64,000 nucleotides of DNA from the UHGV virus genome UHGV-1372088, one strand, 5' to 3'. Below are positions 1 through 29,100 of this stretch, one piece after another (the first letter of the stretch is position 1; each line of letters opens with the position of its first letter). The notes beneath the pieces were generated by a model. That model saw only the letters and a program-made list of their open reading frames with translations, was not told the DNA's origin and searched no databases. The position numbers were made by a program, and so were the translations under genes. Source of the stretch: a virus.

Positions 1-238
1 ACCTTGCCTGGGGCTCTCTTTAAATTGAGAATGTTATGAATCAACTCCTGACCTGACGCGAAATTAATCTGACACGGTCGCTTACTGTTTTTAAAGAAGG
101 CGAGGTTGTCCATCACTTCGTCTATATATTCTTTGGTTAGTGACATGGGTAAATTCTCTTATTCGCTTTTGATGGCTCTTATACTAACAACACTGAAACG
201 GTTTTCACCAAAAGGAAAAAGGGCTCTCGCCCTTTCCT

Positions 239-520
239 TTAGTCCAAATCATCCGGTTCGTACATCGACTCGATATCGGCAATCGTCAGACTGGACGACT
301 TGATCAACTCAAGCCTTCGTTGTCTTCGCGCTCTCTCGATGCGAACACTGTTAACGGCTTTAGCCATATCCTCGGCGGTCATACACTCCAGAAGGAAGTT
401 GAGCGTCTGCGCCTTACTCATAGATAGTCCGTTCTCGGCAAGGCTCGCTCGTATTTTTTCCAGTCTGGCGTTTGCTTGCTGTGAAAGCTTTACCTGACAG
501 GCTATTGGTTTGTCCGACAT
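239..520 (-). CDS. small hypothetical protein, possibly a ribbon-helix-helix-like DNA-binding protein, co-directional with the helicase
   Basis: 93-aa ORF directly downstream of the helicase on the minus strand. Basic/acidic small protein. No recognisable catalytic motifs. Confidence 0.35.
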   Translation of the reverse strand: MSDKPIACQVKLSQQANARLEKIRASLAENGLSMSKAQTLNFLLECMTAEDMAKAVNSVRIERARRQRRLELIKSSSLTIADIESMYEPDDLD

Positions 521-2113
521 TTACTGTTCCCCCCGTAATATCGAATCAAATTTAAATTGCTGGTTTGTTGGCTGTATGCCTTCTGCAAAACCAGGCGTAG
601 ACTCCACTATCGTTTTTCTCTCCATTGAGTGCTGGAGTAGATTTTTATGAAAACCGTCTACAAAATCGGTTATGAAGCAGACATTGGCCTTTCCTTTTTT
701 TGCTCGTAACCCGCGACCGACACGCTGACGAAACTCAACTTCGGCCTTCCCGCCACCGGCAATTATCACTGCTCCGACGCTCGGCACATCGACACCAACG
801 TCGAGGATTGTCGAACCCACCAGCACATCAATCTCACCTACTGCCAGACTTTTTAGCTTCTTCTTGCGAACATCATGGCTGGACTTGCCGTTGATGAAGT
901 CGCAGCGAATGCCTTGCTCACGCATCATTTCGACAAGGATCTGCCCGTGGCGTTCAATCCTAACAAGAGTCATGCAGTTCAACCCTTGCTTTTTGTAGCT
1001 TAAAGCACTAGAAACAATCAGTTTATTACGTGCGAGATTGTATGTAACCCCAAGTTGGTACGCTTTCTGGTAGGGGTCACGAACATTAAGACGAAAATTG
1101 ATGAATTTATCAGCTTTCTCTTTGTTCAGACGGATCTCATCTGGCACGTAGGTCGAATTGTGATATTGAAAATACGGTTTTGCAAGGATGCCGCGATCAA
1201 TTAGATACTTTTCAGTCACTTTGATCTCAATACGACCAGAAACAGCCATTAGGCGCATATTTGCCTCTGTACTGTCCTTCATGAAGGGGGTCGCTGTCAG
1301 TGCAAGTCGGTAGTCAGCGTTCTTGCACAACTTTGCAATATCGTTAAAGCTGTTCCCGGACGACTCATGCGCCTCTTCAAGTATGAGAAGAGTTACATTT
1401 TCGAGGAACTCACGCATTTTCTGACGCCTAGCCATCTGTTTTTTATATTTTGCCGGCTCCAGACTCTTGGATGGCTCGGCCAGCCAGCTGGAGATGGTCT
1501 GCACCGTGGCAACGTTGATGTATCGTGACGGTTTAAATTCGCCAGCTCCGACGACACCAACCTTCTGACCTTTTAAATTCGGCTCCCCATGTGCGGCGCG
1601 GTAGTCGATTGAATCCTGAAAGGCGTCTGCCATCTGGAACATGAGAAGACTTCGAGTGGTCAGGAATAGCGTCATACGGTTGATTCGCGCCGCCGCTTTA
1701 CATGCGACCTGTGACTTTCCGCCACCGGTAGCGATTTGCGCGATCATCCCACCAGACTTAACCATACGCTCAACCGTCTCATCCTGATAGGCGTAGTGCG
1801 GATTAGGTGGGAAGTTGTTGATGATCGGTTTGGCTTTCCCAAGCGGCTCAACCATTGGCTTGCGAAGGTAGGTGCATTCGATGCCTTTGTTTTTCAGGTT
1901 GTTGGCGATGGAACGCGCGAATCCAGCCGGGAAGGAGTTGGTGCTCCATGAGAACATGGTCGACGTACCCTGCCAGCCGCCACCGCCATACGGACTGTAA
2001 GCGCCTTCTTCGACCTGATAGCTCAGCATATCCTGAATCATCTTTCTAACGTCATCCCCAGCACCGCCGACGACAGCGTTCACGGCGTCACAAACAATTC
2101 TGACCATTGTCAA
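521..2113 (-). CDS. superfamily-2 DNA/RNA helicase (DEAD/DEAH-like)
   Basis: 530-aa ORF. Walker A-like ATGGGKSQVA, DExH-like LILEEAHE, and helicase motif VI QRVGRGLR in the C-terminal domain. Confidence 0.75.
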   Translation of the reverse strand: MTMVRIVCDAVNAVVGGAGDDVRKMIQDMLSYQVEEGAYSPYGGGGWQGTSTMFSWSTNSFPAGFARSIANNLKNKGIECTYLRKPMVEPLGKAKPIINNFPPNPHYAYQDETVERMVKSGGMIAQIATGGGKSQVACKAAARINRMTLFLTTRSLLMFQMADAFQDSIDYRAAHGEPNLKGQKVGVVGAGEFKPSRYINVATVQTISSWLAEPSKSLEPAKYKKQMARRQKMREFLENVTLLILEEAHESSGNSFNDIAKLCKNADYRLALTATPFMKDSTEANMRLMAVSGRIEIKVTEKYLIDRGILAKPYFQYHNSTYVPDEIRLNKEKADKFINFRLNVRDPYQKAYQLGVTYNLARNKLIVSSALSYKKQGLNCMTLVRIERHGQILVEMMREQGIRCDFINGKSSHDVRKKKLKSLAVGEIDVLVGSTILDVGVDVPSVGAVIIAGGGKAEVEFRQRVGRGLRAKKGKANVCFITDFVDGFHKNLLQHSMERKTIVESTPGFAEGIQPTNQQFKFDSILRGEQ

Positions 2114-2187
2114 TTTCCTTTTAGGTTTCTTTGTGTTAAAGCGTATGTATAATATGTAAATGGATACTTAAAGGATTATATCAGGAT
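2114..2187. promoter_or_regulatory. divergent intergenic region between the helicase operon (minus) and the ParB-like operon (plus)
   Basis: AT-rich 74 bp containing gtatgtataatatgtaaa. Genes diverge on both sides. Confidence 0.3.
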
Positions 2188-2880
2188 ATGGACATCGAAC
2201 TTAAATTTTTGACGGTTGGCGTCGGCTTGCTCCGGCCCAATCCGTGGAACACGAACACCGTTGGCGCGGCCAATTTTGAGAAGCTGAAAACCTCTATCGA
2301 CCGTCTGGGTTTCTTTAAGCCCGTGCTGGTTCGTGAAGTAGCCGGCGGCTTTTACGAAATCCTTGGTGGCGAACATCGCTGGCGAGCAGCTGTTGAACAA
2401 GGTCGCGAAACTATTGCCATTAACTCGGTGGGCAAGATTGATGACGTTCTGGCTAAGCAAATGTCGCTCGTTGACAACGAACGCTACGGCGAAGACGACG
2501 ATCTGGCACTGCAACGCCTAATCGAAGAGCTCCAGACCTCTCTGGATTACAACTTTTCTGAAATCATCCCAATCGACGACGAGCTGCTGGCCACCGTCTC
2601 TCGCGAAAGCGCTGCCGACTTCGAAAAACTCGAAGAGCTGCTGGCGGAATCTGACGAAGAGGAACTTCCGAAAGACCCGCGCGAGAAGAAAGAGCGTCTG
2701 GGTGTAGACCACCAGACCATGCGCTTCAAGGTCAGCTACGACGTGGCGGAGTCGGTCACCACCATCATCAACCGCATCATCGCGGAGCAGGAAATCAACA
2801 CAGGCAATGAGTCAGAAGACGCAGGGGAAGCGTTGGTGTGGCTTTGCGATCACTACAAGGACGTAACCGATGAAAAATGA
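2188..2880 (+). CDS. ParB N-terminal-domain (ParB/Srx-fold) protein
   Basis: LLRPNPWNTN followed by GGEHRWRAA, which resemble the ParB N-domain signature (NPR box and GxxRxxA motif). Acidic C-terminus. Confidence 0.6.
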   Translation: MDIELKFLTVGVGLLRPNPWNTNTVGAANFEKLKTSIDRLGFFKPVLVREVAGGFYEILGGEHRWRAAVEQGRETIAINSVGKIDDVLAKQMSLVDNERYGEDDDLALQRLIEELQTSLDYNFSEIIPIDDELLATVSRESAADFEKLEELLAESDEEELPKDPREKKERLGVDHQTMRFKVSYDVAESVTTIINRIIAEQEINTGNESEDAGEALVWLCDHYKDVTDEK

Positions 2881-3541
2881 GTTCAAAATCGAGTATCTGG
2901 ACCCCAGGACACTCGTGCCTTACGAAGAAAACGCCAAAATCCACGATGAGCAGCAGATCGCGGACCTGGTTAAAGCCATTCAGAAGCGCGGGTTTGACCA
3001 GCCGATCACGGTAGATGCCAAAATGGTCATCATTACCGGCCACGGTCGTCGCGAGGCTGCAATTCAGGCCGGAATGAAGACGGTCCCGGTGATTGTCCGT
3101 CGCGATCTGTCCGAGGAAGAGACGCGAGCGAAGCGCCTTGAAGATAACCGGCTGGCCAGCACCGATTACGACTCCCTGAAGCTGCAACGTGAGCTGAAAG
3201 AGCTGATTGACGTCGAAATTGACGTATTCGGCTTCTCTGATCGTGAGCTTTCCGTGCTGGTCGAGGATATGACCCGCGATATGGACGTTGACAGCCTGGT
3301 CAGCGATCTGGCAACCGAATCTGAGCGCCAGCGCGAAGAGCACGAAGAGATTAGCTCGACGGTGGCCGCCGGCACTGCGCGTATTACCGACGTTCTGGGC
3401 TTCAAAGAGATCCCCATGAGCGAGGCAATCACTGTCGGAGACCTGATGGCCTACATGGAGGACCAGACCGGTGAGTTCGGCGTCAGCGCCTTCATTGCTT
3501 TTGCTCGCCAGATCAGCGCCGAGATGAATGCCGATGAGTAA
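2870..3541 (+). CDS. second ParB N-terminal-domain-like protein
   Basis: YLDPRTLVPYEEN... ITGHGRREAAIQAG resembles the ParB GxxRxxA region. Overlaps the previous gene by 11 nt. Confidence 0.5.
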   Translation: MKNEFKIEYLDPRTLVPYEENAKIHDEQQIADLVKAIQKRGFDQPITVDAKMVIITGHGRREAAIQAGMKTVPVIVRRDLSEEETRAKRLEDNRLASTDYDSLKLQRELKELIDVEIDVFGFSDRELSVLVEDMTRDMDVDSLVSDLATESERQREEHEEISSTVAAGTARITDVLGFKEIPMSEAITVGDLMAYMEDQTGEFGVSAFIAFARQISAEMNADE

Positions 3542-4178
3542 TTACAACATCAACGTCGCATTCAAGACGCGCGTCAACAAGACCGTTCGAACGCTGGAGA
3601 TCGCCGAGTCCTTTGGGCTCGGCCTCGACGAAAAAGAGTGGGTTCTCTACGACAACCTGGAGCTGAACATCGACCAGGGCGACGTCGTGTACGTTACCGG
3701 TCAGTCCGGCTCCGGCAAATCCGTTGTTCTGCGTGAGCTGCAAAAGCTGATGGCGGCGGAAGGCAAGTCTGTTGCATCCATCGACCAGTTTACCTTTGAG
3801 GACGACAAGAACGTCATCGACCAGATCGGGAAGACCACCAGCGATGCGCTGGGGCTGCTTTCTATGGCTGGGCTGAATGATGCCTATCTGTTCGTCAGAA
3901 AGCCGTCAGAGATGTCTGATGGCCAGAAATACCGTCTCAAAATCGCAAAGCTGATTGAGTCCGGCGCTGATGTCTGGGTGGCCGATGAATTTGGCGCGGT
4001 TCTGGATCGTGTGACGGCGCAGGTTGTGGCATCAAACCTTCAACGAGCGGCAAGGAAAGTGGGGGCAACCGTCATTGTGGCGACGACCCACGAGGATTTG
4101 GTCAATGCGCTGCGGCCGTCAGTGCAGATCACCAAGCACTTCAAGGAACGAGTGAAGGTGGACTATGAAGTTAAGTGA
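3528..4178 (+). CDS. minimal ABC-type ATPase
   Basis: Walker A GQSGSGKS, signature-like SDGQKYRLKIAKL, Walker B VWVADEFGAVLD, H-loop VATTHE. Overlaps the upstream gene. Confidence 0.6.
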   Translation: MPMSNYNINVAFKTRVNKTVRTLEIAESFGLGLDEKEWVLYDNLELNIDQGDVVYVTGQSGSGKSVVLRELQKLMAAEGKSVASIDQFTFEDDKNVIDQIGKTTSDALGLLSMAGLNDAYLFVRKPSEMSDGQKYRLKIAKLIESGADVWVADEFGAVLDRVTAQVVASNLQRAARKVGATVIVATTHEDLVNALRPSVQITKHFKERVKVDYEVK

Positions 4179-4716
4179 TTTGAAAGAGTTCCCAATTCTC
4201 GGCGCACGAGATCAGCGCGAGCTGGTGGACGAAGAGACGTGGAAGGCGTGGATGCGTTCAAAAGGGGCGTATGTGGCCAAGATTGCCCCGTACAACTCCC
4301 GCTTTGCCGTGATGTTTGGTGAAGAGAATTACGTCAACGTCTGCCGTGACCTGTTCTCGCTGGAGATGTCCCAACACATGGAGGGCGCCGGCGGTCTTGT
4401 CACGGTTCCCGGCATGGTCGATTTCGACTACATGCTGCATACCGTGTTCCTGCCGGAAAAATACGATGCGGTGGTTTACTGGCACGAGGCGCTACACCTG
4501 GCGCTGTTTGCGTGTGAAGTGTTCGGCATTAACCCGCTGGAGCAGGAAGCCGTGACCTATCTGCAAGGCCAGATTGTCAAGGATATGGTCTATGCCCGTG
4601 AGCAGTATGTCGCGGACAAGAAGCAGCCCAAGATGGAGGATGAGCCGCCACCGAAGAGTAACCGCAAGCCAAAGGTCGTTGAGACTGAAAAACTGAAGGT
4701 CTGGAGAAAGCAATAA
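4165..4716 (+). CDS. hypothetical protein with an HExxH (HEALH) motif, possible zinc metallopeptidase
   Basis: 183 aa with VYWHEALHLALFACE. Basic C-terminal tail. Confidence 0.35.
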   Translation: MKLSDLKEFPILGARDQRELVDEETWKAWMRSKGAYVAKIAPYNSRFAVMFGEENYVNVCRDLFSLEMSQHMEGAGGLVTVPGMVDFDYMLHTVFLPEKYDAVVYWHEALHLALFACEVFGINPLEQEAVTYLQGQIVKDMVYAREQYVADKKQPKMEDEPPPKSNRKPKVVETEKLKVWRKQ

Positions 4717-5609
4717 TGGACGTCACTATCACGAGGCATCTGCCTGAATCTTTCCCCAAGCACCTCGACTTTATGGAGCGGATCATCGTCACCAGAGGCA
4801 CGGTTGAGGACTGGCATTCACTGAAAGACCTTCACTACAAGACAGACGGTAAGCCGTTTGCGCCAAGTTATTACAAGGCGGAGTTGGATGGTCGGCTGAT
4901 CGGCGTGATGGTGATGGCATTTCCAAAACTGCTGCTGGCCCCGCGCCACCGCATGTTTCCCAAGCTGAAGCCGACCACCAATACGACGGTGGCTAATCAG
5001 TTCTGGGGGCGCAAGGTTAACTCCGAATTTGCGGTCGTCAGCCGTCTGGTTAACGACACGCAGTATCGCGGTCTGGGTCTGTCGTACCGGTTTATGAATC
5101 TGGCGTGTCGTATGCACAACCGCCCGATCCTCGAAATTCAGTCGTCCATGAGCAAATACAACCCATTTGCCATGAAAGCGGGTTTCCAGTTCATCAAACC
5201 AGAAAAGCCCAAGTCTTACGAAAGCGCTCTCAAAGTCTTTCAGCGCCATTTTCGCTCTGATCCTGGCGATAACGAGTCTGTGATGAAAGAACTCTTCACA
5301 ATGGCGGAGGGGCGCAGGAAACGCGCATTGCGAGACTTGGTTGCGGATTACCACAAAAATTCGAGTCTGGCGAAAGCTGGAAGGAACAGAGGCACGACTG
5401 TTCAGGACATTGCTGATTCGCTGGTGGATGAGGCGAGCATTGTGAAGCTGCTGAAAGAGATCCACACACTGAGCTTCACCAGTCCGCTGTATGGCGTGTA
5501 CCGAAACCCGGACTTTGGACGTGAGCTGCCCGACACACTGCCGCTTCTGGCATTTGATAACCAGCCGCTGGACGCGCCGCTGGACTTAACACTTTTGAAA
5601 GGACGCTGA
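4716..5609 (+). CDS. hypothetical protein, possible GNAT-fold acyltransferase
   Basis: 297 aa. EFAVVSRLVNDTQYRGLGLSYRF resembles GNAT motif A (beta-strand followed by R-x-x-G-x-G/A/S). Confidence 0.3.
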   Translation: MDVTITRHLPESFPKHLDFMERIIVTRGTVEDWHSLKDLHYKTDGKPFAPSYYKAELDGRLIGVMVMAFPKLLLAPRHRMFPKLKPTTNTTVANQFWGRKVNSEFAVVSRLVNDTQYRGLGLSYRFMNLACRMHNRPILEIQSSMSKYNPFAMKAGFQFIKPEKPKSYESALKVFQRHFRSDPGDNESVMKELFTMAEGRRKRALRDLVADYHKNSSLAKAGRNRGTTVQDIADSLVDEASIVKLLKEIHTLSFTSPLYGVYRNPDFGRELPDTLPLLAFDNQPLDAPLDLTLLKGR

Positions 5610-5611
5610 AG

Positions 5612-5878
5612 ATGACCTTAACCGACAAACAAAAAGACATTATCAGAACACTGAGCTTGGGCCACGAAAGAGACGAGTTGCTTGATCTGGATGAGTTGCT
5701 TGAGTTGCTGCCCTACACAACAACCAAACAGAGCATTCAGTTTTCGATTCGTATCCTGATTAAGAAAGGTCTGGTCGAGAAGCATGGCATCCGTCAACGC
5801 GCGACGGACGGCCGCCAGCGTCGAGTTTTGGGGTTGACGGCTATCGGCCGAGCGAAAGTGAAGTTGATGCGGATCTAA
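5612..5878 (+). CDS. small hypothetical protein, possible winged-helix DNA-binding protein
   Basis: 88-aa basic protein ending the cassette. Confidence 0.3.
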   Translation: MTLTDKQKDIIRTLSLGHERDELLDLDELLELLPYTTTKQSIQFSIRILIKKGLVEKHGIRQRATDGRQRRVLGLTAIGRAKVKLMRI

Positions 5879-5886
5879 CGTCGAAC

Positions 5887-5946
5887 ACCCCTATATGTTT
5901 TAAAGGATCTTAAAAGAAAGTTATTAAATATATACAGAGCTAGGTC
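5887..5946 (+). repeat. copy A of a ~60-bp repeated element (cccctatatgttttaa..gaaagttattaaatatatacagagctagg)
   Basis: Near-identical copies at 43174-43230 (same orientation) and 43419-43477 (inverted). Confidence 0.8.
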
Positions 5947-6008
5947 TTTTTTATCGCGAAAACAGGATGTTTTAGGCGTAAAGGAACCATAAGGCTAAGG
6001 ATGGCAAG

Positions 6009-6641
6009 ATGAGTACCGAAGTAAAGAAAAAACTCACCCCAGCTCAATGGGTTGAAGTTGAAGTTAAATGGAAATCAGGTGAATACACCCTTTCGGCTCT
6101 GGAAGAAGAGTATGGGCTCAGAACCGAGACTTTCTCTCGTTACTTCAAGAAGAAAGGCATTTCCAAAGGCTCAGACTCTGTTTCGGACATGATCCGTGAG
6201 TCTTTGAAGTCCGATTCGGAACAGCGAGCGCTGGCGCGAGCAAAGCTGGTGGAGGACCGGAGAGACAGCTTCGATAAAATCTCCAACCAGATCGCCGGTT
6301 TGACCATGAAAGAGATTCACGCGGCCAGGAGTGAAAGTCGGCCGCTTTCGGTGATCGAGGATAACCTAAAGTCACTTCAACGCGCCTCAGCGATCATCGG
6401 CAAATGTTTCGACATCTCCAGTCGCGCTTTAGGTCTGGAACGAGAAGAAATGGCAGGCGATGAAATTCCGAATCTGGTCTTCGGTGAATTGACGCCGACG
6501 CAGGTTCAAGAGCTCAGGAAGATGGACGAAGGTAATTCTCTGTCTGACGATCTTGAAGAGCTCGAAGAGCTTGAGAAATCGCTCGGCGCAATCCCGGATG
6601 AGGACGACGAGAGTGAGGACGACGAGGAAGGGGAAGAGTAA
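6009..6641 (+). CDS. terminase small subunit (putative)
   Basis: 210 aa immediately upstream of, and overlapping, TerL. N-terminal helix-turn-helix-like region and acidic C-terminus. Confidence 0.5.
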   Translation: MSTEVKKKLTPAQWVEVEVKWKSGEYTLSALEEEYGLRTETFSRYFKKKGISKGSDSVSDMIRESLKSDSEQRALARAKLVEDRRDSFDKISNQIAGLTMKEIHAARSESRPLSVIEDNLKSLQRASAIIGKCFDISSRALGLEREEMAGDEIPNLVFGELTPTQVQELRKMDEGNSLSDDLEELEELEKSLGAIPDEDDESEDDEEGEE

Positions 6642-7897
6642 TGGCCCTTCCAAGTTCGTTAAGCCTGATTCAGCTGCATTCCGGGCAGATGAAGGTATTC
6701 AAGGCGCCGCACCGCTTTAAGGTGGTGTGTGCTGGTCGTCGTTGGGGGAAGTCGATGCTTTCCATCTCGATGATCATGCGAGCGGCGGCCAAGGACCGTA
6801 AGCAGCGAGTGTGGTACATCGCGCCATCCTACCAGATGGCGAGGCAGATCTTGTGGGACGCGCTGAATGAGGCGATACCGCGCAAGTGGATTATGAAAAA
6901 GAACGACACGACGATGACCATCGTGTTGAGGAACGGTAGCGAGATCTCGCTGAAGGGGGCGGATAAGCCCGACTCCCTGCGCGGTGTTGCATTGAACTTC
7001 GTCGTTCTCGATGAGTTTCAGGATATGAAGCCGGACACCTGGTACAAGGTACTTCGTCCGACGCTGTCCTCAACTCGCGGCGGTGCGCTCATCATCGGTA
7101 CGCCGAAAGGCTTCTCTGAGTTCCACAAGCTGTGGCAGATCGGTCAGGACGAGACGATGCAAGCGCGGGGCCAGTGGAAAAGCTGGCAGTTCGTGACGGC
7201 GGACTCTCCGTTCGTACCAGAGAGCGAAGTTGAAGCCGCGAAAAACGATATGGACCCGAAATCGTTCGCGCAGGAATACCTGGCGTCGTTCGAGAATATG
7301 TCCGGTCGTGTTTATTATCCGTTTGACCGTGATATCCACGTTAAGCCGCTGGCGTTCGACAGTCGTCTTCCAGTCTGGGTAGGTCAGGACTTCAACATCG
7401 ACCCAATGTCGTCTGTGATATTGCAGCCGCAGCCGAACGGGGATTTGTGGGCGATTGATGAGATCGTGCTGTTCTCTTCGAACACGGCAGAAGTCTGCGA
7501 TGAGCTGGAAAGACGCTACTGGCGGCAGAAGTCGCAAATTACCGTCTTCCCTGACCCGGCCGGTGCATATCGCCAGCACGCTCGCGGTGAATCGGATACC
7601 GACATTTTCAAAGAGAAAGGCTTTTTGAGAATCGATCACCCGAAAAAGCACCCGCCTATCGCTGACCGTGTGAACGCCGTAAACCGTCGTCTGATGACGG
7701 CATCCGGGGAGGTACGACTGTATATTGACCCGAAATGTAAGCACCTGATTGAGTCTCTGGAGAAGGTGATTTACAAGCCTGGCAGCCGTGATATCGATAA
7801 AACAGGCAATGTGGAGCACAGCGCCGACGCCCTGGGCTATCCGGTACACCGTAGATACCCGGTGAAAAATCGTGTTATTGTTGGCGGCAGTAGATAA
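6641..7897 (+). CDS. terminase large subunit
   Basis: Walker A VVCAGRRWGKS, Walker B VVLDEFQDM, and a C-terminal nuclease-like region. Sits in the typical TerS-TerL-portal order. Confidence 0.8.
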   Translation: MALPSSLSLIQLHSGQMKVFKAPHRFKVVCAGRRWGKSMLSISMIMRAAAKDRKQRVWYIAPSYQMARQILWDALNEAIPRKWIMKKNDTTMTIVLRNGSEISLKGADKPDSLRGVALNFVVLDEFQDMKPDTWYKVLRPTLSSTRGGALIIGTPKGFSEFHKLWQIGQDETMQARGQWKSWQFVTADSPFVPESEVEAAKNDMDPKSFAQEYLASFENMSGRVYYPFDRDIHVKPLAFDSRLPVWVGQDFNIDPMSSVILQPQPNGDLWAIDEIVLFSSNTAEVCDELERRYWRQKSQITVFPDPAGAYRQHARGESDTDIFKEKGFLRIDHPKKHPPIADRVNAVNRRLMTASGEVRLYIDPKCKHLIESLEKVIYKPGSRDIDKTGNVEHSADALGYPVHRRYPVKNRVIVGGSR

Positions 7898-7929
7898 GTA
7901 AACACATACATACATAGCAAGGATGCGAA

Positions 7930-9483
7930 ATGGGATTAACAAGTAAGGATATTCAGGCACTGGTGAAGCGCCGACACCCTGAATATGAATTGAGAAAGGC
8001 ACATTGGGACTTCATCGCCGCCACCTACGTCGGTGGCCGCGAGTGGTTCAAGCACAATATCTTCCGCTACTTCAAAGAAGGTGACGAAGAGTATCGCGAG
8101 CGCGTTGAACGTGCTTACCGCTTCAACCATTCGCGCGAAGTGGTCAATCTGATCAACAAATACCTCTTCAAAGAGGGGATCACCCGAACCGAGGATGATG
8201 CGCCGGAGGCAATTAAAAACTTCTGGCTGAAGGCAACACGCCAGGGCGTCACCATTGACGAGTTTATGGCGGAGCTGGACCTGCAATCATCCATCTACGG
8301 GCGGATTTGGATTGTTGTCGACAGCACATTGTCTGGTGACGTTGAGTCCGTGGCCGACCAGAAGAAGCAGAATGGTCGGGCATACGCTTATTGGGTTTCT
8401 CCGCAGCAGTTGCTCGACTGCGCGTATGACGACGACGGGCAGCTTATCTGGGCGCTTATCTGCGAAGTGGCGCGTGATGATGCAGATCCTTTCACATCGT
8501 CCGGCAAAGAGTTCCTGCGTTATCGTCTCTGGACCCGCGAGCAGTGGTATCTTTTCCGTGAGGAAGGTAAACGCGCTGGTGGATTGCCTAAAGTCGTTCT
8601 GGACGGCAGTGGCGATCATAATCTTGGCGTCGTGCCGGTCTTCCCGCTGGATTGTTCCGGGCAGGGTGAATCGCCGTACTTCAGCCCATCGCTGATTGAC
8701 GACATTGCGTATCTGGACCGGGCGGTAGCGAACTATCTGTCCAACCTTGATGCGATCATCCAGGACCAGACCTTCTCGCAGCTGGCCATACCGGTTCAGG
8801 CGATGTTGCCAGGCGATGAGAATCACGCAAAGGTGATGGAGATGGGGACCAAGCGCGTTTTCTCCTTTGACGGTGAGAATGGGGCGCAGCCGTTCTATCT
8901 GTCGCCAGATCCGAAGCAAGCCAGCATCATCATTCAGGCCATTCAGCAGATCATCAACGAAATCTACCATTCGGTGGGCGTCGCAGGTGAGCGCACCAAG
9001 CAGGATAATGCCGCCGGCATAGACAACTCTTCTGGCGCGGCGAAGATGTACGACTTCCAGCGCGTGAACTCGTTGCTGGTGGCGAAATCTGGCCGCCTGA
9101 AGCTGGCAGAAGCCCGTATGATTGAACTGGCGGCGAAATGGATGGGTGTTGGTGACATTGACACGGAACGGCTGCTGACATACCCGGAGAGCTTCGACAT
9201 TCGCGGTCTGACGGACGAGTTTGGCGTGGCGACCAATCTCCAGCTGCTGGGCGCACCGGATTCAGCCCGTCGTTACCAGATGGAGCTGTTGCTCGATAAG
9301 GTCTTCCCGAATCTGACCAAAGAGCGAAAAGCGGAAATCGACAGCGACCTGAAGAAGTACCCGCCGCAGCCGGTTGAGCCAGCACCAGCTGGCGGAGCGA
9401 AGAAGCCCGAGCCGACTACCTCTGCCACCAAGGAAGAGAGCGACAAGAAGGCCGAAAACGATAAGGTTCGCAAGAAAGATTAA
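7930..9483 (+). CDS. portal protein (putative)
   Basis: 517 aa directly after TerL. Size and position fit. Ends in a basic/acidic tail. Confidence 0.6.
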   Translation: MGLTSKDIQALVKRRHPEYELRKAHWDFIAATYVGGREWFKHNIFRYFKEGDEEYRERVERAYRFNHSREVVNLINKYLFKEGITRTEDDAPEAIKNFWLKATRQGVTIDEFMAELDLQSSIYGRIWIVVDSTLSGDVESVADQKKQNGRAYAYWVSPQQLLDCAYDDDGQLIWALICEVARDDADPFTSSGKEFLRYRLWTREQWYLFREEGKRAGGLPKVVLDGSGDHNLGVVPVFPLDCSGQGESPYFSPSLIDDIAYLDRAVANYLSNLDAIIQDQTFSQLAIPVQAMLPGDENHAKVMEMGTKRVFSFDGENGAQPFYLSPDPKQASIIIQAIQQIINEIYHSVGVAGERTKQDNAAGIDNSSGAAKMYDFQRVNSLLVAKSGRLKLAEARMIELAAKWMGVGDIDTERLLTYPESFDIRGLTDEFGVATNLQLLGAPDSARRYQMELLLDKVFPNLTKERKAEIDSDLKKYPPQPVEPAPAGGAKKPEPTTSATKEESDKKAENDKVRKKD

Positions 9484-9487
9484 AAAC

Positions 9488-9515
9488 AGCCCGTCTTTTG
9501 ACGGGTTTTTTATTT
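9488..9515 (+). terminator. rho-independent terminator
   Basis: Hairpin cccgtc tttt gacggg followed by a T-run. Confidence 0.6.
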
Positions 9516-23191: not shown

Positions 23192-26100
23192 ATGGAACAG
23201 TTCAAAAAAAGAAAACTGCCTGAAATTATCGCAGGTGCTGGCGGCAAGAAGTCGTCCGGCTCGTCAAGGACACCGGTAGAGGCGGACGACACCGTTAACT
23301 CGAATGTCAAAGTATCCATTCTGGACTTGCTGGGTGAGGGCGTTATTGGCGGTCTGAAGGACGGCGCGAAGTCGATCTTCCTTAACGACCTGCCATTGCA
23401 GAACTCTGACGACACTTACAACCACTCAGGCGTAACCTGGTGGTTCCGTGATGGCTCTCAGGACCAGAGCATCATCGAAGGCTTCGACTACACCGAAACG
23501 CCTAAAACCATCGGCTTGCAGGTCAAGAAAACGAGCGCCGTTACGATGGCGGTCGACAGTGACAGCGCTGACCGCTTCCGCGTCATTCTGAAATTCCCAT
23601 CGCTGAAATCTGTCGACAAAAAGACGGGTGACACCAGCGGTACTTCTGTCACGTACAAATTCCAGGTGAGCAGTGCCGGCGGCGCATTTGTTGACGTGGC
23701 GCCAGAGGGCGAGTCCTCCGGGACCGTTACGCTGACCGCGAAGAAGGCCGGCGTTTATTATCGAAGCTACATACTCAACCTGCCGAAGCCGGGCTCTAAG
23801 TATCAGGTTCGTGTTGTTCGTGTTACCGACGACAACAAAGACACGACCTACCTTGCCAACGATATCTATGTGGATACCGTCGGGGAGATCATCAACACCA
23901 ACATGAACTACCCGAACTCTGCGCTGGTCGGCCTTCGCGTCAACTCAGAGCAGTTCGGCTCGTCCATGCCGTCTCGTTCGTACCTGATTAGCGGTATGAA
24001 GATCCGCGTCCCGTCAAACTACGATGAAGTCACCAACGAATACCGAGGGACATGGGACGGTTCGTTCAAACTGATGTCGTCCAGTAACCCGGCATGGATT
24101 CTGTATGACCTCGTGACCAATAAGCGCTATGGTCTGGGTGAGTTCGTCAGAGAGTCAATGTTTGACCTTGGCCAGCTTTATCAGATCGGCCGGTACTGCG
24201 ATGCGCTGGTTGACGACGGCTTTGGTGGCAAAGAGAAACGATTCGCCATCAACACGCAGATCACCACGCTTCAGGACGCCTATCGCTGCGTTCAGGATAT
24301 TGCTGGTGCTTTCCGTGGGATGGTTTATTGGGCCGGCGGCATGGTTCATGTGACGCAGGATAGCCCGTCAGACCCGATCGCCATCTACTCAAACTCCAAC
24401 GTAATTGATGGTCGATTCTCCTACAAAGGCTCTGCCCGTAAGGATCGCCCTTCTGTCGCGCTTATCACCTACAACAACAAAGAAGACAATTACAAGCAGA
24501 ATATTGAGTATGTCGAAGACTTAGAAGCCATTGAGCGCTACGGGATACGCAAGACGGAGTCTGTAGCGTTTGGTTGTACTTCTCGTGGCATGGCTCATCG
24601 TGTGGGCTTGTGGACGCTTTATACAGGGCGTATGGAGTCGGACGTTATCACGTTCCAGACAGGGATGGACTCAGCATTCCTCGTTCCGGGCGACGTCATC
24701 CTGATTCACGACAAGTTCCGCGCCGGCCGTCGTAATTCTGGTCGTGTTGTCGCATCCACCGCAAACAGCATTACACTGGACTCTACGGTCGACATGACCA
24801 AGGCTGGCACCATCACCTTCATTAACGCTGAAGGCCGGATGATTAGCCGCGACATCCTTGAATCTGGCGTAGTGAGCAAAGTCACCTTTAAAGATGCAGT
24901 GAACGAGGCCGACCGCCCGGTTGCTGATGGCATCTGGGTGATTTCTCAAAGCGATCTGAAACCGCTTCAGGCTCGCGTAGTTGGTGTTACCCAGGGTGAA
25001 GACGGCGTTGGTAGCACGATCACCTGTATCCAGAATAACCCGTCCAAATATGCTGCCATTGATGACGGCGCCGTGCTCATCCCGCAAAACACGACCGTCC
25101 TTGATCCGACATTCTCGAAACCCGAGAACCTGAAGATCACTGAAGGAACATACCTGTCCTCTCCGGGCAACCTAAACGTATCGCTGACGGCGACATGGGA
25201 AGGTAAATCCGCAGAGTATTGGGTTAGCTGGCGCCGATCCGATGCCGGTAATGTGTCCAACTGGCAGACGGCCAAAGTTAACGAAGAGCAGTTCGAAGTT
25301 AAGCCGGTCGCGGAGAGCGGCAAATACGACTTCCAGGTGTACGGCGTTTCCGTCTCCGGGCGTAAGACCGAAATCCTCAGCACAACGTATCAGGTTCTGG
25401 GAACCATGACGCCTCCGGGCGCTCCATCGTCTCTGACTGCCGTTGGCGACTACCGCCAGATTATCCTTGGCTGGTCTAACCCGTCGTCCGTCGATTTGGA
25501 TCACATCCAGATTTACGCCTCGAAGACCAACGACGTCACCAAGGCGACTCTGCTGGCTAAATCCACGACCACCAACTTCACCCACAGCGGTCTGGAAGAT
25601 TCGGTAACGTGGTACTACTGGATTCGCTCGGCCAACAAACGCGGCATGACCAGTGACTGGAGCTCGAAGCTCGGTACGTCGGCAATGACGCGCGATGTAT
25701 TGTCGTTCCTGCAAAACAAGATCACCGAATCCGAGCTCGCCAAAGACCTTCTGGCTGATATCGACAGCAAGGCGGTTGCTGCTGAGGTTGATGCTTCCAT
25801 TGAAGACGCGAAGTCCGAAGCTACCGCGCAGGTTGAGGCCGCCAAGAAAGAGGCGTCCAGCGCCTTAAGCGCAGCCCAGGTCACGCTGAACAACGCCATC
25901 AATCAGGAAGCGACTGACCGCAATAATGCTGTTGCTGACGAAGCTAAGCAGCGCTCCCAGGCTATTTCGGCAGAAGCTGATGCGCGTACCAAGGCTATCT
26001 CCGATGAGGCTATCGCTCGCGCTGACGCAATTACAAAAGAGTCCGACACTCGCACGAGGGCAATGGCCGACGAAGTCACCGCCCGAAACAAGGCTGTCGC

Positions 26101-29100
26101 TGACGAAGCCGCCGCCCGGACAAAGGCTGTGTCTGACGAGGCTGTCGCTCGCGCCAAGGCTGTGTCTGATGAGGTGGCGGCCAGAACCAAAGCTGTCGCA
26201 GATGAGGCCACCGCTCGCGCCAAGGCGATATCTGACGAAGCCGCCGCACGCGCTACGGCAATTAGCGATTCGGTGGCGGTTGAGGCTACCGCTCGCGCGA
26301 AGGCTATCGCAGACTCCGCGTCGTCTCTCAGCGACAAAATTGAAAAAGAGGTCACCGATCGCGTCAAGGCTGTTTCCGATCTGGACACCAAAACCGCAAA
26401 CGCGATCTCGTCCGAATCATCAAGCCGCATCGCTGCCATTTCTGATGAGGCAAAGACTCGCGCTGACGCTATTCTTCAGGAGAAGAACAGCCGCCAGGCG
26501 GAAATTAAAAATGTGTCCGCTCAAATGCAGACCGCCAACGAGTCTCTGGCGCAGCAGATTTCACAGGTCGCAGCGGGAACAGGCGAGCAGTTCGACAGTC
26601 TCAAGATCTGGTATTTCGATGCACAGACAACTGAAGGGTGGAGCGGCAACAAGAGCGCTATTCTGTCTGCTGACGGGTGGATTCGCTCAGGCAATGGCGT
26701 GGATGCATGGCTGACATCGCCAGCAGGTCTTGCTATCGCCGGCGCATCCTATCGCTTCATGAAGATGCGTATCCGAAAAGTGGGTAATCCAGTTTGGGAA
26801 GGTGCAATTCGCTGGATCACCAAAAGCGGCGATAGCTTCAACAACACCAATTTCATCACGGTAAGCGAACCGGAGTACAACGCCCAGGGTGTTGCTACGC
26901 TGACGGCAAGCGATATCAAGTGGAATAACGATACCGTTCACCAGATTCGTCTTGATCTTTCCATCTCGACCGATGATTCAAACTACATCGAAGTCGACTG
27001 GATCGCCGTCGGCCGACCAACTCCGGGCGCCGGCATGGCCGCTCTGCAAGATGAGAAGACCGCCCGTACCAACGCTGATGCAGCAGAAGCAGCCAGCCGC
27101 TCAACTCTGGCAACACAGCTGCGTGGCTCTTATGACGGGACTGACATTACAAAGCTGAGCTCTGGCCTCATCTTCCAGGAGCAGCAAGCGCGTGTAACTG
27201 CCGATAAAGTAGAGGCGACCGCACGTCAGTCACTGGAAACCAAAGTGAATGACAGCGTATCGAGTATCAACAAGTCGCTCGATACGCTGAACACGAAAGA
27301 CCAGGCGATGGCGTCAGACATCACCGGCCTTAAATCTTCTTTAGACGACAAAGCTGATGCGTCGGCCGTTCAGACACTCAAGGCGACGGTCGAGCAGCAG
27401 GGCTCGAATATCTCTACTCAGGGACAGTCGATCACCAAGCTTCAAGGCGATCTGAATACCACCAACACCAATGTTGGGAAGAAAGCCGACCAGACGGCCA
27501 TGACCGCGTTACAGGGAACTGTGACCCAGCAGGGCAAGGATATCGCGGCAGCCAACAGCAGCATCTCCACCCTGAAGTCTTCTCTGGACACTACGAACGA
27601 TGCGGTGGCCAAGAAAGCTGATGCGACGGCGGTCAGCGATCTGTCTTCTCGCGTAAGCGCGACAGAAGGTAGCGTGTCCAGTCAGGGCGACAGCATTGTC
27701 CAGCTGAATAACTCACTGAGCAACGCTCTGGCGGACTCTGACGCTTCAGCCAAGACTCCGAACAACCTGATCGTCAACCCATCGTTTGAGCGTGGTATGG
27801 ACGGTTATATTGGCGCATCCAGTCTCAGTACGGTCGTTACTGTTCAGATACCGCATGTCGGCACAAAAGCACTGAAAATTGACCCAGGTAGCTCCGTATC
27901 TCCGGGCCAGTACATCGATTTTGTCAAAGGCCGTACTTATGAGATCGGCGTCTGGGTTAAACAGGTTTCTGGAACAACAGATAATGGGCAGGGCAACAAC
28001 AAGCTGCGAGTGGGTAATAGTGCTGGAGCGCCAGTGTTTGAGGTCCCGTTCGCAAACCTCACCATTGACTGGACGAAAGTTAGCAAACGATGGAAGGCTA
28101 CCGAGACGGGAAGTCTGCCCGTTACGCTGAGCAACTATCTGACCGCCGGCAACCGCTACTTCGATGACTTCTACGTTATCGACGTAACCGACGCCGTGAA
28201 CATCGATGCGAGCGCCTCCGCGATTTCTTCGTTGCAGAGTACCGTCACGCAACAAGGTAAAGACATTTCGTCGCAGTCCACCAGCATCGCTGGCCTGAAC
28301 AACAGCCTGAACACAACCAACGAAAACGTCGCGAAGAAGGCTGATTCCTCTGCGGTCCAGACGTTGCAAAATACTGTGACGCAGCAGGGCAAGGATATCT
28401 CTGCCGCCAATAGCGACATCACCAATCTGAAAGGCAGTCTGGATGCGACAAACGATAAAGTCGCTACCAAGGCTGACGCTTCAGCAATGAGTGATCTGGC
28501 GTCTCGCGTATCCCAGAATGAGAAAGGCATTGCCACGCAATCCGACTCTCTGACCAAATTGAGTAACAAGGTGTCCAGCATTGACGTCGGCGGTGTGAAC
28601 CTCATCACCAACGGCGATATGAGTGCGGCGCCGGTATCTCTGCTTTCCACTACGACCAGCTTTAAATCGTTCGATCGTACCGTGACTGCCGATGTCCGTG
28701 GCATGTCAGTGGTGACGCCTCGCTCAATAACGCTGTCCGTATGGTTTAAAGAGCTGTCCTCTGGGTTCGGGACGACGAAGCCGTTCACCAGTGTTGTGAT
28801 TGGTAAAAGCGCTGCCGGCGATAATTGGGGCGTTCGTTTCTATGCCAGCAACGGAAGTGTGTCGCAGAAAGGGGATATGTTCGTCTGGACCGGTACGATT
28901 AACCTGAAAGCCGGCGACACGCTGTTCAATGACCCGACGACGATCCGCTTCATTCTGGAAGATAAAACCCAGAAGACTGGCGCCATCTTCTACCGCGTTA
29001 AGTTGGAAAACGGCAACATCGCAACCGACTGGTCCGCAAGCCCGGACGAAGTGAAGTCAGGTCTGGATGCCAATGCGTCTGCACTGAATGCACTAACGAC

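What the first reader, a model, noticed from the sequence alone, without database searches (positions are those of the whole stretch)
2188..5878. Uncharacterised cassette: two ParB-N-like proteins, a minimal ABC ATPase, an HExxH protein, a GNAT-like protein and a small DNA-binding protein
Six co-oriented, overlapping or tightly packed genes lie between the helicase operon and terS.
- Two consecutive proteins carry the ParB/Srx-type N-domain signatures (GGEHRWRAA; ITGHGRREAA). In ParB proper this is a CTP-binding/nuclease-like fold.
- They are translationally coupled to a 216-aa stand-alone ABC ATPase (Walker A/B, signature SDGQKYRL, H-loop).
- Next come a 183-aa HEALH protein (possible zincin), a 297-aa protein with a GNAT-like motif A, and an 88-aa basic protein.

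This domain combination does not correspond to a named defence, anti-defence or modification system that I can recall. ParB-like proteins do occur in DNA-modification clusters such as Dpd, where DpdB is ParB-like, so a DNA-modification or anti-restriction role is plausible. No transglycosylase partner is visible in this window.
Basis: partly seen in the sequence, partly recalled or inferred. Interest (0 to 1): 0.7.

Follow-up and report, generated by a model that had tools for sequence, protein, structure and literature searches.

The report
Phage ParB–ABC–GNAT module before terminase
The cassette is real, and its core (ParB-like proteins plus an ATPase and an acyltransferase) is a widespread phage gene module placed just before the DNA-packaging genes; others have predicted on paper that it chemically modifies phage DNA, but nobody has tested this.

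Summary
All six ORFs and the quoted motifs are present at the stated coordinates. The window is an SSU5-like phage-plasmid relative.

The cassette is not six equal parts.
- **Core:** ParB1, ParB2, ABC ATPase, GNAT-fold protein and a small probable winged-helix protein.
- **One family, split in two:** the ABC and GNAT genes are the two halves of a protein family that is usually fused (COG2401-type, "ABC ATPase with acetyltransferase domain").
- **Cargo:** the HExxH gene sits in a variable slot at the split point. It occurs in about 30% of SSU5-like loci and nowhere else. No zincin fold was found.

"ParB-like → ABC–GNAT → (terS) → TerL → portal" recurs in phages of Enterobacteria, Pseudomonas, Rhizobium, Stenotrophomonas, Pasteurella, Streptococcus, Gordonia and Leptospira. 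In archaeal proviruses the fused gene directly follows TerL, without ParB.

Aravind's group had already predicted, by computation only, that ABC-coupled GNATs acylate a DNA base. A phage ParB-like protein has since been shown to activate another DNA-modifying enzyme on dsDNA.

Best reading (confidence about 0.45): a late-expressed, ATP-driven DNA-acylation module. Partition, Dpd and known defence systems are rejected.

It is a new member of a known but untested kind.

The parts
2188..2880 (+). ParB1: ParB/Srx N-terminal domain protein of the chromosomal-ParB/Noc type, with an acidic C-terminal half and no detectable HTH
   Evidence: Pfam ParB_N covers residues 14-97, E 2.7e-12. PHROG 723, E 8.8e-60. 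The best PDB sequence hits are Caulobacter ParB, Spo0J and Noc, over residues 14-102 only. In that alignment GGEHRWRAA pairs with GERRWRAA and DNERYGE with ENVQRAD.
2870..3541 (+). ParB2: second ParB/Srx N-domain protein, of the type fused to phage DNA methyltransferases; overlaps ParB1 by 11 nt
   Evidence: Pfam ParB_N, E 1.2e-8. PHROG 930, E 2e-89, and the N-terminal part of PHROG 498 'DNA methyltransferase', E 1.9e-33. PADLOC MTase_II N-terminal region, E 5.5e-19. It is only 26% identical to ParB1 over 102 aa.
3528..4178 (+). Soluble ABC ATPase: the N-terminal half of the split ABC-GNAT protein; overlaps ParB2 by 14 nt
   Evidence: ABC_tran, E 1.7e-12. Walker A, signature, Walker B and H-loop are all present in the translation. 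It matches positions 2-210 of the HMM of fused ABC-GNAT proteins, E 7.5e-89. It is the only member of the split ABC-GNAT family found in the 64-kb window: jackhmmer seeded with this ORF matched no other window ORF.
4165..4716 (+). HExxH protein: accessory cargo in the variable slot between the ABC and GNAT genes; not part of the conserved core
4716..5609 (+). GNAT-fold acyltransferase (about residues 20-165) plus a family-specific helical/beta C-terminal domain: the C-terminal half of the split ABC-GNAT protein
5612..5878 (+). Small basic protein, probably winged helix-turn-helix; conserved last gene of the module in the SSU5 / nickie / BUCTxx99 group
   Evidence: PHROG 900, E 2.1e-36. Present in 81 of 82 SSU5-like loci. 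The weak profile hits are all wHTH domains: CRP family E 0.04, MarR, cullin WH-B. Other weak hits: Lrs14 and Sta1, PadR.
6009..7897 (+). Context: terS-like DNA-binding protein (6009-6641) and TerL (6641-7897), the conserved downstream neighbours
   Evidence: PHROG 867. TerL is Terminase_6N, E 2.2e-7. The gene order PPA(H)GsSL holds in 75 of 86 loci of the SSU5-like set plus the three outgroup phages.
521..2113 (-). Context: divergently transcribed SF2 (ResIII/DEAD, UvsW-like) helicase, the conserved upstream neighbour
   Evidence: Pfam ResIII and Helicase_C. Orthologues of 38-46% identity sit in the same position in nickie, RHEph10 and BUCTxx99.

Best explanation
The core of the cassette is the SSU5-group version of a widespread phage module. 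The core comprises ParB1, ParB2, the ABC ATPase, the GNAT-fold protein and the small wHTH-like protein.

**Proposed mechanism (inferred, not shown)**
1. The ABC ATPase and the GNAT domain work as one enzyme. They are one polypeptide in most relatives.
2. ATP-driven dimerisation of the ABC heads clamps or remodels duplex DNA.
3. The GNAT domain then transfers an acyl group from an acyl-CoA-type donor to an exocyclic amine of a base.
4. The two ParB/Srx N-domain proteins act as NTP-binding loaders or activators that make dsDNA accessible. A phage ParB-like protein does this for a T-dioxygenase.
5. The small wHTH protein may target or regulate the module.
6. The module is transcribed with, or just ahead of, terS-TerL. 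Progeny DNA would therefore be modified before or while it is packaged, which would protect it from restriction in the next host.

**Shown**
- The folds, motifs, split/fused relationship and conserved synteny.
- No listing among highly expressed genes in a lysogen.

**Inferred**
- The substrate (DNA), the chemistry, the role of ParB and the biological benefit.

The HExxH gene is unrelated cargo.
For: - **One enzyme, split:** the ABC and GNAT genes are the split form of fused ABC-GNAT proteins.
- **Catalytic motifs intact:** Walker A/B, signature and H-loop are present. GNAT motifs A and B are at invariant columns.
- **GNAT fold confirmed:** Mom, a DNA-adenine-modifying GNAT, is among the top hits.
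- **ParB-like gene directly upstream, often overlapping,** in 8 of 12 sampled phage lineages:
  - SSU5-like, nickie, RHEph10 and BUCTxx99;
  - S. pyogenes 315.4, Gordonia Mariokart and Leptospira LE4;
  - Pasteurella Pmp13.
- **ParB2 type:** it resembles the ParB-N domain fused to phage DNA methyltransferases.
- **Published prediction:** DNA-base acylation by ABC-coupled GNATs in phages (PMC7824862).
- **Experimental precedent:** a phage ParB-like protein lacking a DNA-binding domain is required for a DNA-modifying enzyme on dsDNA (PMC13229309).
- **Lineage-specific neighbours point to acyl/amide chemistry:**
  - ASCH domain. YqfB-type ASCH proteins hydrolyse N4-acylcytosines (PMC6972931).
  - Amidoligase_2.
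  - A formyltransferase-like gene.
[quoted passage not shown] The ParA/MinD-like CYRAN_99 is (PMC9928086 Table 1).
Against: - No modified base has been reported for any phage carrying the module, and no paper in the searched library tests it.
- GNATs acylate proteins, small molecules and RNA far more often than DNA. Nothing in the sequence identifies the acceptor.
- Mom scores no better than dozens of ordinary GNATs.
- ParB is almost absent from the archaeal and fused-form loci: 4 of about 160. ParB is therefore not obligatory for the enzyme.
- The tight coupling to TerL fits a packaging role equally well: 72 loci have a -4 to +7 nt junction.
- SSU5 already encodes two ordinary DNA methyltransferases.
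- The ABC domain is closest to transporter-type and ABC-F NBDs, not to DNA-clamping SMC/Rad50/RecF types.
- The ASCH neighbour occurs in only one of the fetched loci.
Confidence: 0.45

Rival explanations
1. Packaging accessory. The ABC-GNAT enzyme, with ParB-like proteins in bacterial phages, acts on or with the terminase. It might mark or prepare the pac/cos region, remodel concatemers for TerS-TerL, or acetylate a packaging or virion protein. It would not modify bases genome-wide.
For: - The fused gene directly follows a Terminase_6N TerL in 72 of about 150 archaeal and viral loci, with -4 to +7 nt spacing.
- It lies 0-3 genes upstream of TerL in 11 more loci. It also lies immediately before terS-TerL-portal in at least 8 bacterial phage lineages and before TerL in Firmicute prophages.
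- The window's TerL is also Terminase_6N.
- One relative carries an intein in the ABC domain. From general knowledge, inteins are typical of essential phage DNA-handling enzymes.
Against: - A separate terS-like gene is present, so the module does not replace TerS.
- The gene is not near a terminase in Nonlabens P12024S (replication module), Tenacibaculum pT24, Aeromonas PX29 and the Porphyromonas phage.
- 30 archaeal or viral loci with room on both sides keep ABC-GNAT without a TerL in the BLAST cluster.
- The region before terS is a common site for DNA-modification genes in siphoviruses (my own knowledge), so position alone does not discriminate.
- Window TerL and archaeal TerL are only weakly similar when compared directly (E 2e-4).
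Confidence: 0.17
2. Protein or small-molecule acylation for host takeover or anti-defence. Possible targets are host RNA polymerase (as with phiKMV Rac), aminoacyl-tRNA, a nucleotide signal or a defence protein. The ABC ATPase and ParB proteins would serve as regulators or as sensors of DNA.
For: - Most characterised GNATs act on proteins or small molecules.
- Phage GNATs that modify host proteins are known (PMC7824862).
- The variable slot inside the module carries cargo-like genes.
Against: - Obligate coupling to an ABC ATPase and the recurrent ParB partner point to a nucleic-acid substrate.
- The module sits at the head of the structural/packaging gene block and is not among the highly expressed lysogen genes. 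Host-takeover genes are usually early.
- The module is conserved across very different hosts, including archaea, which argues against a host-specific protein target.
Confidence: 0.2
3. Plasmid-partition system of the phage-plasmid. The two ParB proteins would be centromere-binding proteins and the ABC ATPase the motor.
For: - ParB_N is present in both proteins, and ParB1 is closest to chromosomal ParB, Spo0J and Noc.
- The element is related to SSU5-type phage-plasmids.
Against: - There is no ParA/MinD-type ATPase. CbiA scores only E 0.0012, below the Pfam cut-off.
- Similarity to ParB stops at about residue 105, so no HTH or dimerisation domain is detected.
- No parS-like repeats occur in 1-9500.
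- The same module occurs in about 110-kb phages of Pseudomonas, Rhizobium and Stenotrophomonas and in small prophages of Streptococcus, Pasteurella and Gordonia, always next to the terminase.
- The cassette orthologues are not listed among genes expressed in the LF82 lysogen, whereas a MinD/ParA-like gene elsewhere is.
- RHEph10 has a separate ParA-like gene.
Confidence: 0.03
4. An anti-phage defence system carried by the phage-plasmid, that is, an ABC-ATPase-based immune module.
For: The ABC ATPase gives PADLOC hits to mad3 and mad8 (E 2.1e-15 and 4e-10). It also gives weak hits to PtuA, LmuB and similar ATPases.
Against: - These are generic ABC-domain hits. No second component of any PADLOC system is present.
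- The module is conserved at a fixed position in the core genome of many phage lineages.
- It is not listed among genes highly expressed in the lysogen.
Confidence: 0.04

Closest known systems
Phage ABC ATPase-coupled GNAT, predicted DNA-nucleobase acylation system (Iyer, Zhang, Burroughs, Aravind 2013 NAR 41:7635, as summarised in Iyer et al. 2021, PMC7824862); COG2401-type 'ABC-type ATPase fused to a predicted acetyltransferase domain' (MK0520-like)
   Same: - Same protein family. An HMM of fused proteins matches the window's ABC at E 7.5e-89 and its GNAT at E 3.5e-44.
- Tenacibaculum phage pT24, the example named in the 2021 paper, is recovered by tblastn with the fused query P0166, a member of the alignment used to build that HMM.
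- JGI and GenBank annotators use the COG2401 name for the orthologues.
   Different: - Here the enzyme is split into two genes, with a variable cargo slot at the junction.
- It carries an extra C-terminal domain of about 130 aa, shared with the archaeal subfamily but absent from the 366-397-aa forms in the Pmp13, LE4, P12024S and Mariokart phages.
- It has two ParB-like partners instead of one, plus a small wHTH-like protein.
- The published function is a prediction only. I could not read the 2013 paper.
ParB-dependent phage thymine dioxygenases (5mYOX clade E plus cognate ParB; O'Toole et al. PNAS 2026, PMC13229309)
   Same: - A short phage ParB-like protein with an N-terminal NTP-binding domain and no obvious DNA-binding domain is encoded next to a DNA-modifying enzyme.
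- It is needed when the substrate is dsDNA.
- Terminase genes frequently co-occur in those contigs.
   Different: - The partner enzyme there is an Fe(II)/2OG dioxygenase, not an ABC-GNAT.
Phage Mu Mom (GNAT-fold DNA adenine methylcarbamoylase)
   Different: - There is no sequence-level relationship, and Mom scores no better than generic GNATs.
- Mom has no ABC ATPase or ParB partner.
Dpd 7-deazaguanine DNA-modification system (DpdA/DpdB/DpdC)
   Same: It uses a ParB-like ATPase (DpdB) as helper of a DNA-modifying enzyme (as summarised in PMC12839542).
   Different: - There is no TGT/DpdA or DpdC in the cassette or its conserved neighbours.
- The enzyme here is an acyltransferase.
TmcA/NAT10-type ATPase-coupled GNAT (RNA cytidine N4-acetyltransferase)
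   Same: The logic is the same: an NTPase domain is coupled to a GNAT that acetylates a nucleobase. This comparison is from my own knowledge and was not tested here.
   Different: The ATPase there is a helicase-type P-loop, not ABC. No sequence match was seen in the Pfam or NCBIfam scans.

Membership tests
Phage ABC-GNAT (COG2401-type) predicted DNA-acylation module | Soluble ABC ATPase domain with intact Walker A, signature, Walker B and H-loop, and no membrane domain | tested here: met
   The motifs are in the translation. ABC_tran is found. These positions are invariant or nearly invariant in fused relatives. The A3 HMM matches at E 7.5e-89.
Phage ABC-GNAT (COG2401-type) predicted DNA-acylation module | GNAT-fold domain with acyl-CoA-binding motif immediately C-terminal to the ABC domain | tested here: met
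   The GNAT fold is confirmed. The Q/RxxGxG and N..A...GF motifs are invariant. The order ABC then GNAT is kept, but as two genes separated by a cargo slot. The A3 HMM matches positions 212-457 at E 3.5e-44.
Phage ABC-GNAT (COG2401-type) predicted DNA-acylation module | Phage or provirus context with a ParB-like neighbour | tested here: met
   ParB lies directly upstream in 8 of 12 sampled phage lineages. It is largely absent from the archaeal loci.
Phage ABC-GNAT (COG2401-type) predicted DNA-acylation module | Acylation of a DNA nucleobase | not testable with these tools
   This is a prediction in the literature only. No experimental paper was found in the library.
ParABS partition system | ParA/MinD-type deviant Walker ATPase partner | tested here: not met
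   The adjacent ATPase is ABC-type. CbiA/ParA scores E 0.0012, below the cut-off.
ParABS partition system | ParB with central HTH DNA-binding domain and C-terminal dimerisation domain | tested here: not met
   Similarity to solved ParB, Spo0J and Noc ends at about residue 100-135. Pfam finds only ParB_N. No structure model was made of these two proteins.
ParABS partition system | Repeated parS-like centromere sites nearby | tested here: not met
   No meaningful direct or inverted repeat family occurs in 1-9500.
Dpd 7-deazaguanine DNA-modification system | DpdA (tRNA-guanine-transglycosylase homologue) and DpdC next to the ParB-like DpdB | tested here: not met
   No TGT or DUF328 hit was found for any of the nine proteins between 239 and 6641. 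None is annotated in half of the SSU5 genome. The rest of the window was not scanned.
Mom-type DNA-modifying GNAT | Specific sequence or structure similarity to Mom beyond the generic GNAT fold | tested here: inconclusive
Zincin / gluzincin metallopeptidase (HExxH protein only) | HExxH on a helix plus a downstream Glu or His third ligand | tested here: met
   WHEALH (107-111) and E128 in EQEAxTYLQG are invariant in 8 sequences. In the model both lie on consecutive long helices.
Zincin / gluzincin metallopeptidase (HExxH protein only) | Zincin fold recognisable by structure comparison | tested here: not met
Known anti-phage defence systems (PADLOC) | Match of two or more components to one system | tested here: not met
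   Only generic ABC-domain hits (mad3, mad8, PtuA) and a ParB-N hit to MTase_II were found.

The most novel reading that the evidence does not exclude
The ParB-ABC-GNAT module writes a so far unknown acyl mark on phage DNA, for example N4-acyl-cytosine or N6-acyl-adenine. It would do so in step with terminase-driven packaging. That would make SSU5-like phage-plasmids, many temperate phages of pathogens (S. pyogenes, Pasteurella, Klebsiella, E. coli, Salmonella) and Bathyarchaeia proviruses carriers of a new DNA modification made by a new class of ATP-dependent DNA acyltransferase.
Probability: 0.3. Interest if true: 0.85.

Novelty: new member of a known kind. Interest (0 to 1): 0.5.

Why it matters
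If the prediction holds, this would be only the second class of acyl-type DNA base modification enzymes after Mom.

It would also be the first such enzyme driven by an ABC ATPase and helped by ParB-like proteins.

It would be present in clinically common Enterobacterial phage-plasmids and in streptococcal prophages.

That bears on three things:
- how these elements escape restriction;
- how their DNA behaves in sequencing and cloning;
- what non-partition ParB proteins do.

The module is easy to test. Culturable phages (SSU5, Cyrano, nickie, RHEph10, Mariokart, LE4) carry it, and the split/fused and ParB-plus/ParB-minus variants are natural controls.

If the module is instead a packaging factor, it would be a new, widely conserved terminase accessory.

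Tried and rejected
- **Megablast of the cassette against phages:** no hit. Relatives are about 70% identical at the nucleotide level.
- **Sequence-profile searches of the GNAT-like and HExxH families against PDB:** nothing usable.
- **HExxH fold searches:**
  - Foldseek against PDB gave nothing significant.
  - The afdb50 library was unavailable.
- **Literature searches:**
  - COG2401 and 'ABC-type ATPase fused' returned nothing.
  - Iyer et al. 2013, Iyer et al. 2009 and Krishnan et al. 2020 are not held in the library. The original prediction could therefore only be read second-hand.
- **parS-like repeats and promoter/terminator scans in and around the cassette:** nothing above chance.
- **TTAAAGGAT motif:** it is shared by the two flanking intergenic regions but is not conserved in relatives, so it was rejected as chance.
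- **Specific co-evolution with one TerL lineage:**
  - Single-linkage clustering put the window's TerL and the archaeal TerLs together.
  - The direct comparison is weak (E 2e-4), so I do not claim it.
- **ASCH as a general partner:** it occurs in only one of the fetched loci.
- **Partition, Dpd and PADLOC defence readings:** rejected, as set out in the membership tests.

Full report
**1. Observation**

| ORF | Coordinates | Length |
|---|---|---|
| ParB1 | 2188-2880 | 230 aa |
| ParB2 | 2870-3541 | 223 aa |
| ABC ATPase | 3528-4178 | 216 aa |
| HExxH protein | 4165-4716 | 183 aa |
| GNAT-like protein | 4716-5609 | 297 aa |
| Small protein | 5612-5878 | 88 aa |

- **Spacing:** successive genes overlap by 11, 14, 14 and 1 nt, then a 2-nt gap follows. 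Translational coupling is therefore plausible.
- **Flanks:** a divergent SF2 helicase (521-2113, minus strand) lies upstream. A terS-like gene (6009-6641), TerL (6641-7897, Terminase_6N) and an SPP1-type portal (7930-9483) lie downstream.
- **Pfam:** ParB_N in both ParB proteins and ABC_tran in the ATPase. Nothing is found for the other three.
- **PHROGs:** every ORF belongs to an established phage protein family, so these are real genes.
- **Signals:** no promoter-like site, and no more terminator-like sites than in shuffled sequence, occur inside the cassette.

**2. What the element is**

- The cassette has no close nucleotide match among deposited phages.
- It is about 70% identical over 80-83% of its length to SSU5-type phage-plasmids of Klebsiella, E. 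coli and Salmonella.
- The GNAT-like protein is 81-82% identical to theirs.
- A 97%-identical copy of the HExxH protein is on record from Klebsiella pneumoniae.
- A 6.9-kb IMG/VR contig carries a 100%-identical GNAT-like gene (L006).

**3. Core versus cargo**

The conserved order is: helicase(-) | ParB, ParB, ABC, [slot], GNAT, small protein, terS-like, TerL, portal.

- **Same order in other phages:** it is found in E. coli Cyrano and Klebsiella ST13-OXA48phi12.3. It is also found in much more distant phages of about 110 kb: Pseudomonas nickie, Rhizobium RHEph10 and Stenotrophomonas BUCTxx99.
- **How common:** across 86 loci (the SSU5-like set plus nickie, RHEph10 and BUCTxx99), the order PPAGsSL or PPAHGsSL holds in 75.
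- **The slot between ABC and GNAT is variable**:
  - empty in 19 loci;
  - an unrelated 84-aa ORF in 38 loci;
  - the HExxH ORF in 25 loci;
  - a 111-aa hypothetical protein in nickie;
  - DUF2829 plus a hypothetical protein in RHEph10.
- **HExxH protein, distribution:** it has only nine database homologues. It is found in no locus outside the SSU5-like set.
- **HExxH protein, motifs and fold:**
  - WHEALH and a downstream EQEAxTYLQG are invariant and lie on two consecutive long helices of a moderate model (pLDDT 76.8).
  - I treat it as cargo of unknown function with a metal-site-like motif, not as part of the system.

**4. The ABC and GNAT genes are one enzyme, split**

- **GNAT motifs:** the acyl-CoA pyrophosphate-binding motif (QYRGLG) and motif B (YNPFAMKAGF) lie at invariant or near-invariant columns.
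- **Fused relatives:**
  - A search of 1.84 billion representatives found 861 relatives. Many are 450-500 aa long, with the GNAT-like part at about residues 200-480.
  - All ten such proteins scanned carry ABC_tran N-terminal to the GNAT-like part.
- **Shared motifs:** the ABC part of the fused proteins has the window ATPase's idiosyncratic motifs: FGLG, GDxVYxTGxSGSGKS and LSDGQKYR.
- **HMM test:** an HMM of 40 fused proteins matches the window's ABC at E 7.5e-89 (positions 2-210) and its GNAT protein at E 3.5e-44 (positions 212-457).
- **Existing name:** JGI and some GenBank annotators already label the orthologues 'ABC-type ATPase fused to a predicted acetyltransferase domain' / MK0520, that is COG2401.

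**5. Distribution and context of ABC-GNAT**

*Bacterial phages.* tblastn with a fused protein finds 95 phage records. I sampled twelve lineages.

| Lineages | Context |
|---|---|
| SSU5-like, nickie, RHEph10, BUCTxx99, S. pyogenes prophage 315.4, Gordonia Mariokart (genes 1-4 at the left genome end), Leptospira LE4, Pasteurella Pmp13 | ParB-like gene immediately upstream (usually overlapping); terS/TerL/portal immediately downstream |
| Nonlabens P12024S | Replication module, between primase and an SF2 helicase |
| Tenacibaculum pT24 | Near a helicase |
| Aeromonas PX29 | Neighbours all annotated as hypothetical proteins |
| Porphyromonas phage | After the tail genes, next to a formyltransferase-like gene |

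Firmicute prophages show a different order: ABC-GNAT, Amidoligase_2, a 90-aa ORF, TerL, SPP1 portal, with no ParB.

*Genomes.*
- A scan of species-representative genomes found 548 loci.
- The best 80 are mostly Bathyarchaeia MAGs, often with several copies per MAG.
- My ORF clustering shows the fused gene at the end of a head-tail gene block (tail tube, HK97-gp10-like, YQBQ-like). It lies directly after a Terminase_6N TerL in 72 loci, with junctions of -4 to +7 nt.
- 30 loci with room on both sides lack that TerL.
- ParB-like ORFs are nearly absent there: 4 of about 160 loci.
- Direct similarity between the window's TerL and an archaeal TerL is weak (E 2e-4). I therefore claim a positional link, not co-evolution.

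**6. The ParB proteins and the small protein**

- **ParB1:** it aligns with Caulobacter ParB, Spo0J and Noc over residues 14-102 only. GGEHRWRAA pairs with GERRWRAA, and DNERYGE with ENVQRAD.
- **ParB2:** it resembles the ParB-N module fused to phage DNA methyltransferases (PHROG 498 E 1.9e-33; PADLOC MTase_II E 5.5e-19).
- **Relationship:** the two are only 26% identical to each other.
- **Missing partition features:** neither shows a detectable HTH or dimerisation domain. No parS-like repeats occur nearby.
- **Small protein:** it is conserved in the SSU5, nickie and BUCTxx99 groups. It gives only weak matches, all of them to winged-helix domains.

**7. Literature**

- **Prior prediction:** Iyer et al. 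[quoted passage not shown] They cite Iyer et al. 2013 and name phage pT24 as an example. My tblastn search with a fused family member recovers pT24. The 2013 paper is not in the library.
- **ParB precedent:** O'Toole et al. 2026 (PMC13229309) show that a phage ParB-like protein with an NTP-binding domain and a C-terminal domain, but no DNA-binding domain, is required for its cognate thymine dioxygenase. In vitro the requirement applies only on dsDNA.
- **ASCH chemistry:** YqfB-type ASCH proteins hydrolyse N4-acylcytosine derivatives (PMC6972931). An ASCH gene sits two genes downstream of the ABC gene, before the terminase genes, in prophage 315.4. It occurs in none of the other fetched loci.
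[quoted passage not shown] It does include a MinD/ParA-like gene.
- **No experimental test:** I found no experimental study of the module in the library.

**8. Mechanism**

- **Best-supported reading (0.45):** a late-expressed DNA-acylation machine.
  - The ABC-GNAT enzyme uses ATP to engage DNA and an acyl-CoA-type donor to modify a base.
  - The ParB-like proteins load or activate it on duplex DNA.
  - The wHTH protein targets or regulates it.
  - Placement next to terS-TerL times the reaction to progeny DNA before encapsidation.
- **What is shown:** only the folds, motifs, the split/fusion relationship, the synteny and the lysogen expression hint.
- **What is inferred:** the substrate, the chemistry and the benefit.
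- **Main rivals:** a packaging accessory (0.17) and protein or small-molecule acylation (0.20).
- **Effectively excluded:** partition (0.03) and a defence system (0.04).

**9. Novelty and score**

- The cassette is a new, split, two-ParB member of a module that has been described computationally but never characterised.
- Three points may go beyond what is published. I could not verify this without the 2013 paper.
  - The extent of the terminase linkage.
  - The archaeal proviral copies.
  - The variable cargo slot at the split point.
- Interest is 0.5. A specialist would not be surprised by the gene content. However, the module is widespread, sits in tractable and clinically relevant phages, and offers a direct route to a possibly new DNA modification.

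Noticed in passing
window 23192-38704 (+): A single 5170-aa ORF. It has GpJ-type FNIII-A and Phage-tail_3 domains at the N-terminus and a Phage_Tail_Tip domain near the C-terminus. This is an unusually long central tail fibre / tip attachment protein.
   Followed up: partly
window 4165-4716 and the same slot in L001-L085: The junction between the split ABC and GNAT genes is a variable cargo slot. Among SSU5-like loci it is empty in 19, holds an unrelated 84-aa ORF in 38, and holds the HExxH ORF in 25. nickie and RHEph10 carry still other small genes there.
   Followed up: yes
L086-L165 (e.g. L122:132-9383, L109:30-9365): Bathyarchaeia MAGs carry several copies each of a block of about 9 kb: putative head and tail genes, terS-like (HTH_38/GcrA-like), Terminase_6N TerL and fused ABC-GNAT. 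Some copies lack TerL. They could be proviruses, defective proviruses or domesticated elements.
   Followed up: partly
P0181, P0187, P0214: One ABC-GNAT relative has a LAGLIDADG intein inside the ABC domain. Two others are fused to, or merged with, a family B DNA polymerase.
   Followed up: no
L087:9510-10400; L246:5981-6358; L252:5023-5496: ABC-GNAT has lineage-specific neighbours. Firmicute prophages carry Amidoligase_2 (4 loci). S. pyogenes prophage 315.4 carries an ASCH-domain protein. A Porphyromonas phage carries a formyltransferase-like gene. These may hint at the acyl donor or at a reader/eraser.
   Followed up: partly
window 5879-6008: The AT-rich intergenic region between the small protein and terS contains a block (ATATAC..AAGC.GG) that is at least 90% conserved across 48 distinct SSU5-like sequences. 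It could be a late promoter or a packaging-related site.
   Followed up: no
window 2168-2176 and 5900-5908: TTAAAGGAT occurs only twice in the 64 kb, once in each intergenic region flanking the cassette (4 of 100 shuffles reach 2). It is not conserved in relatives, so it is probably chance.
   Followed up: yes
window 239-520 (-) and 521-2113 (-): The UvsW-like SF2 helicase and the small gene behind it (PHROG 1466) are conserved divergent neighbours of the module in all four groups of about 110-kb phages. SF2 helicases also lie near ABC-GNAT in P12024S and pT24. A functional link was not tested.
   Followed up: partly
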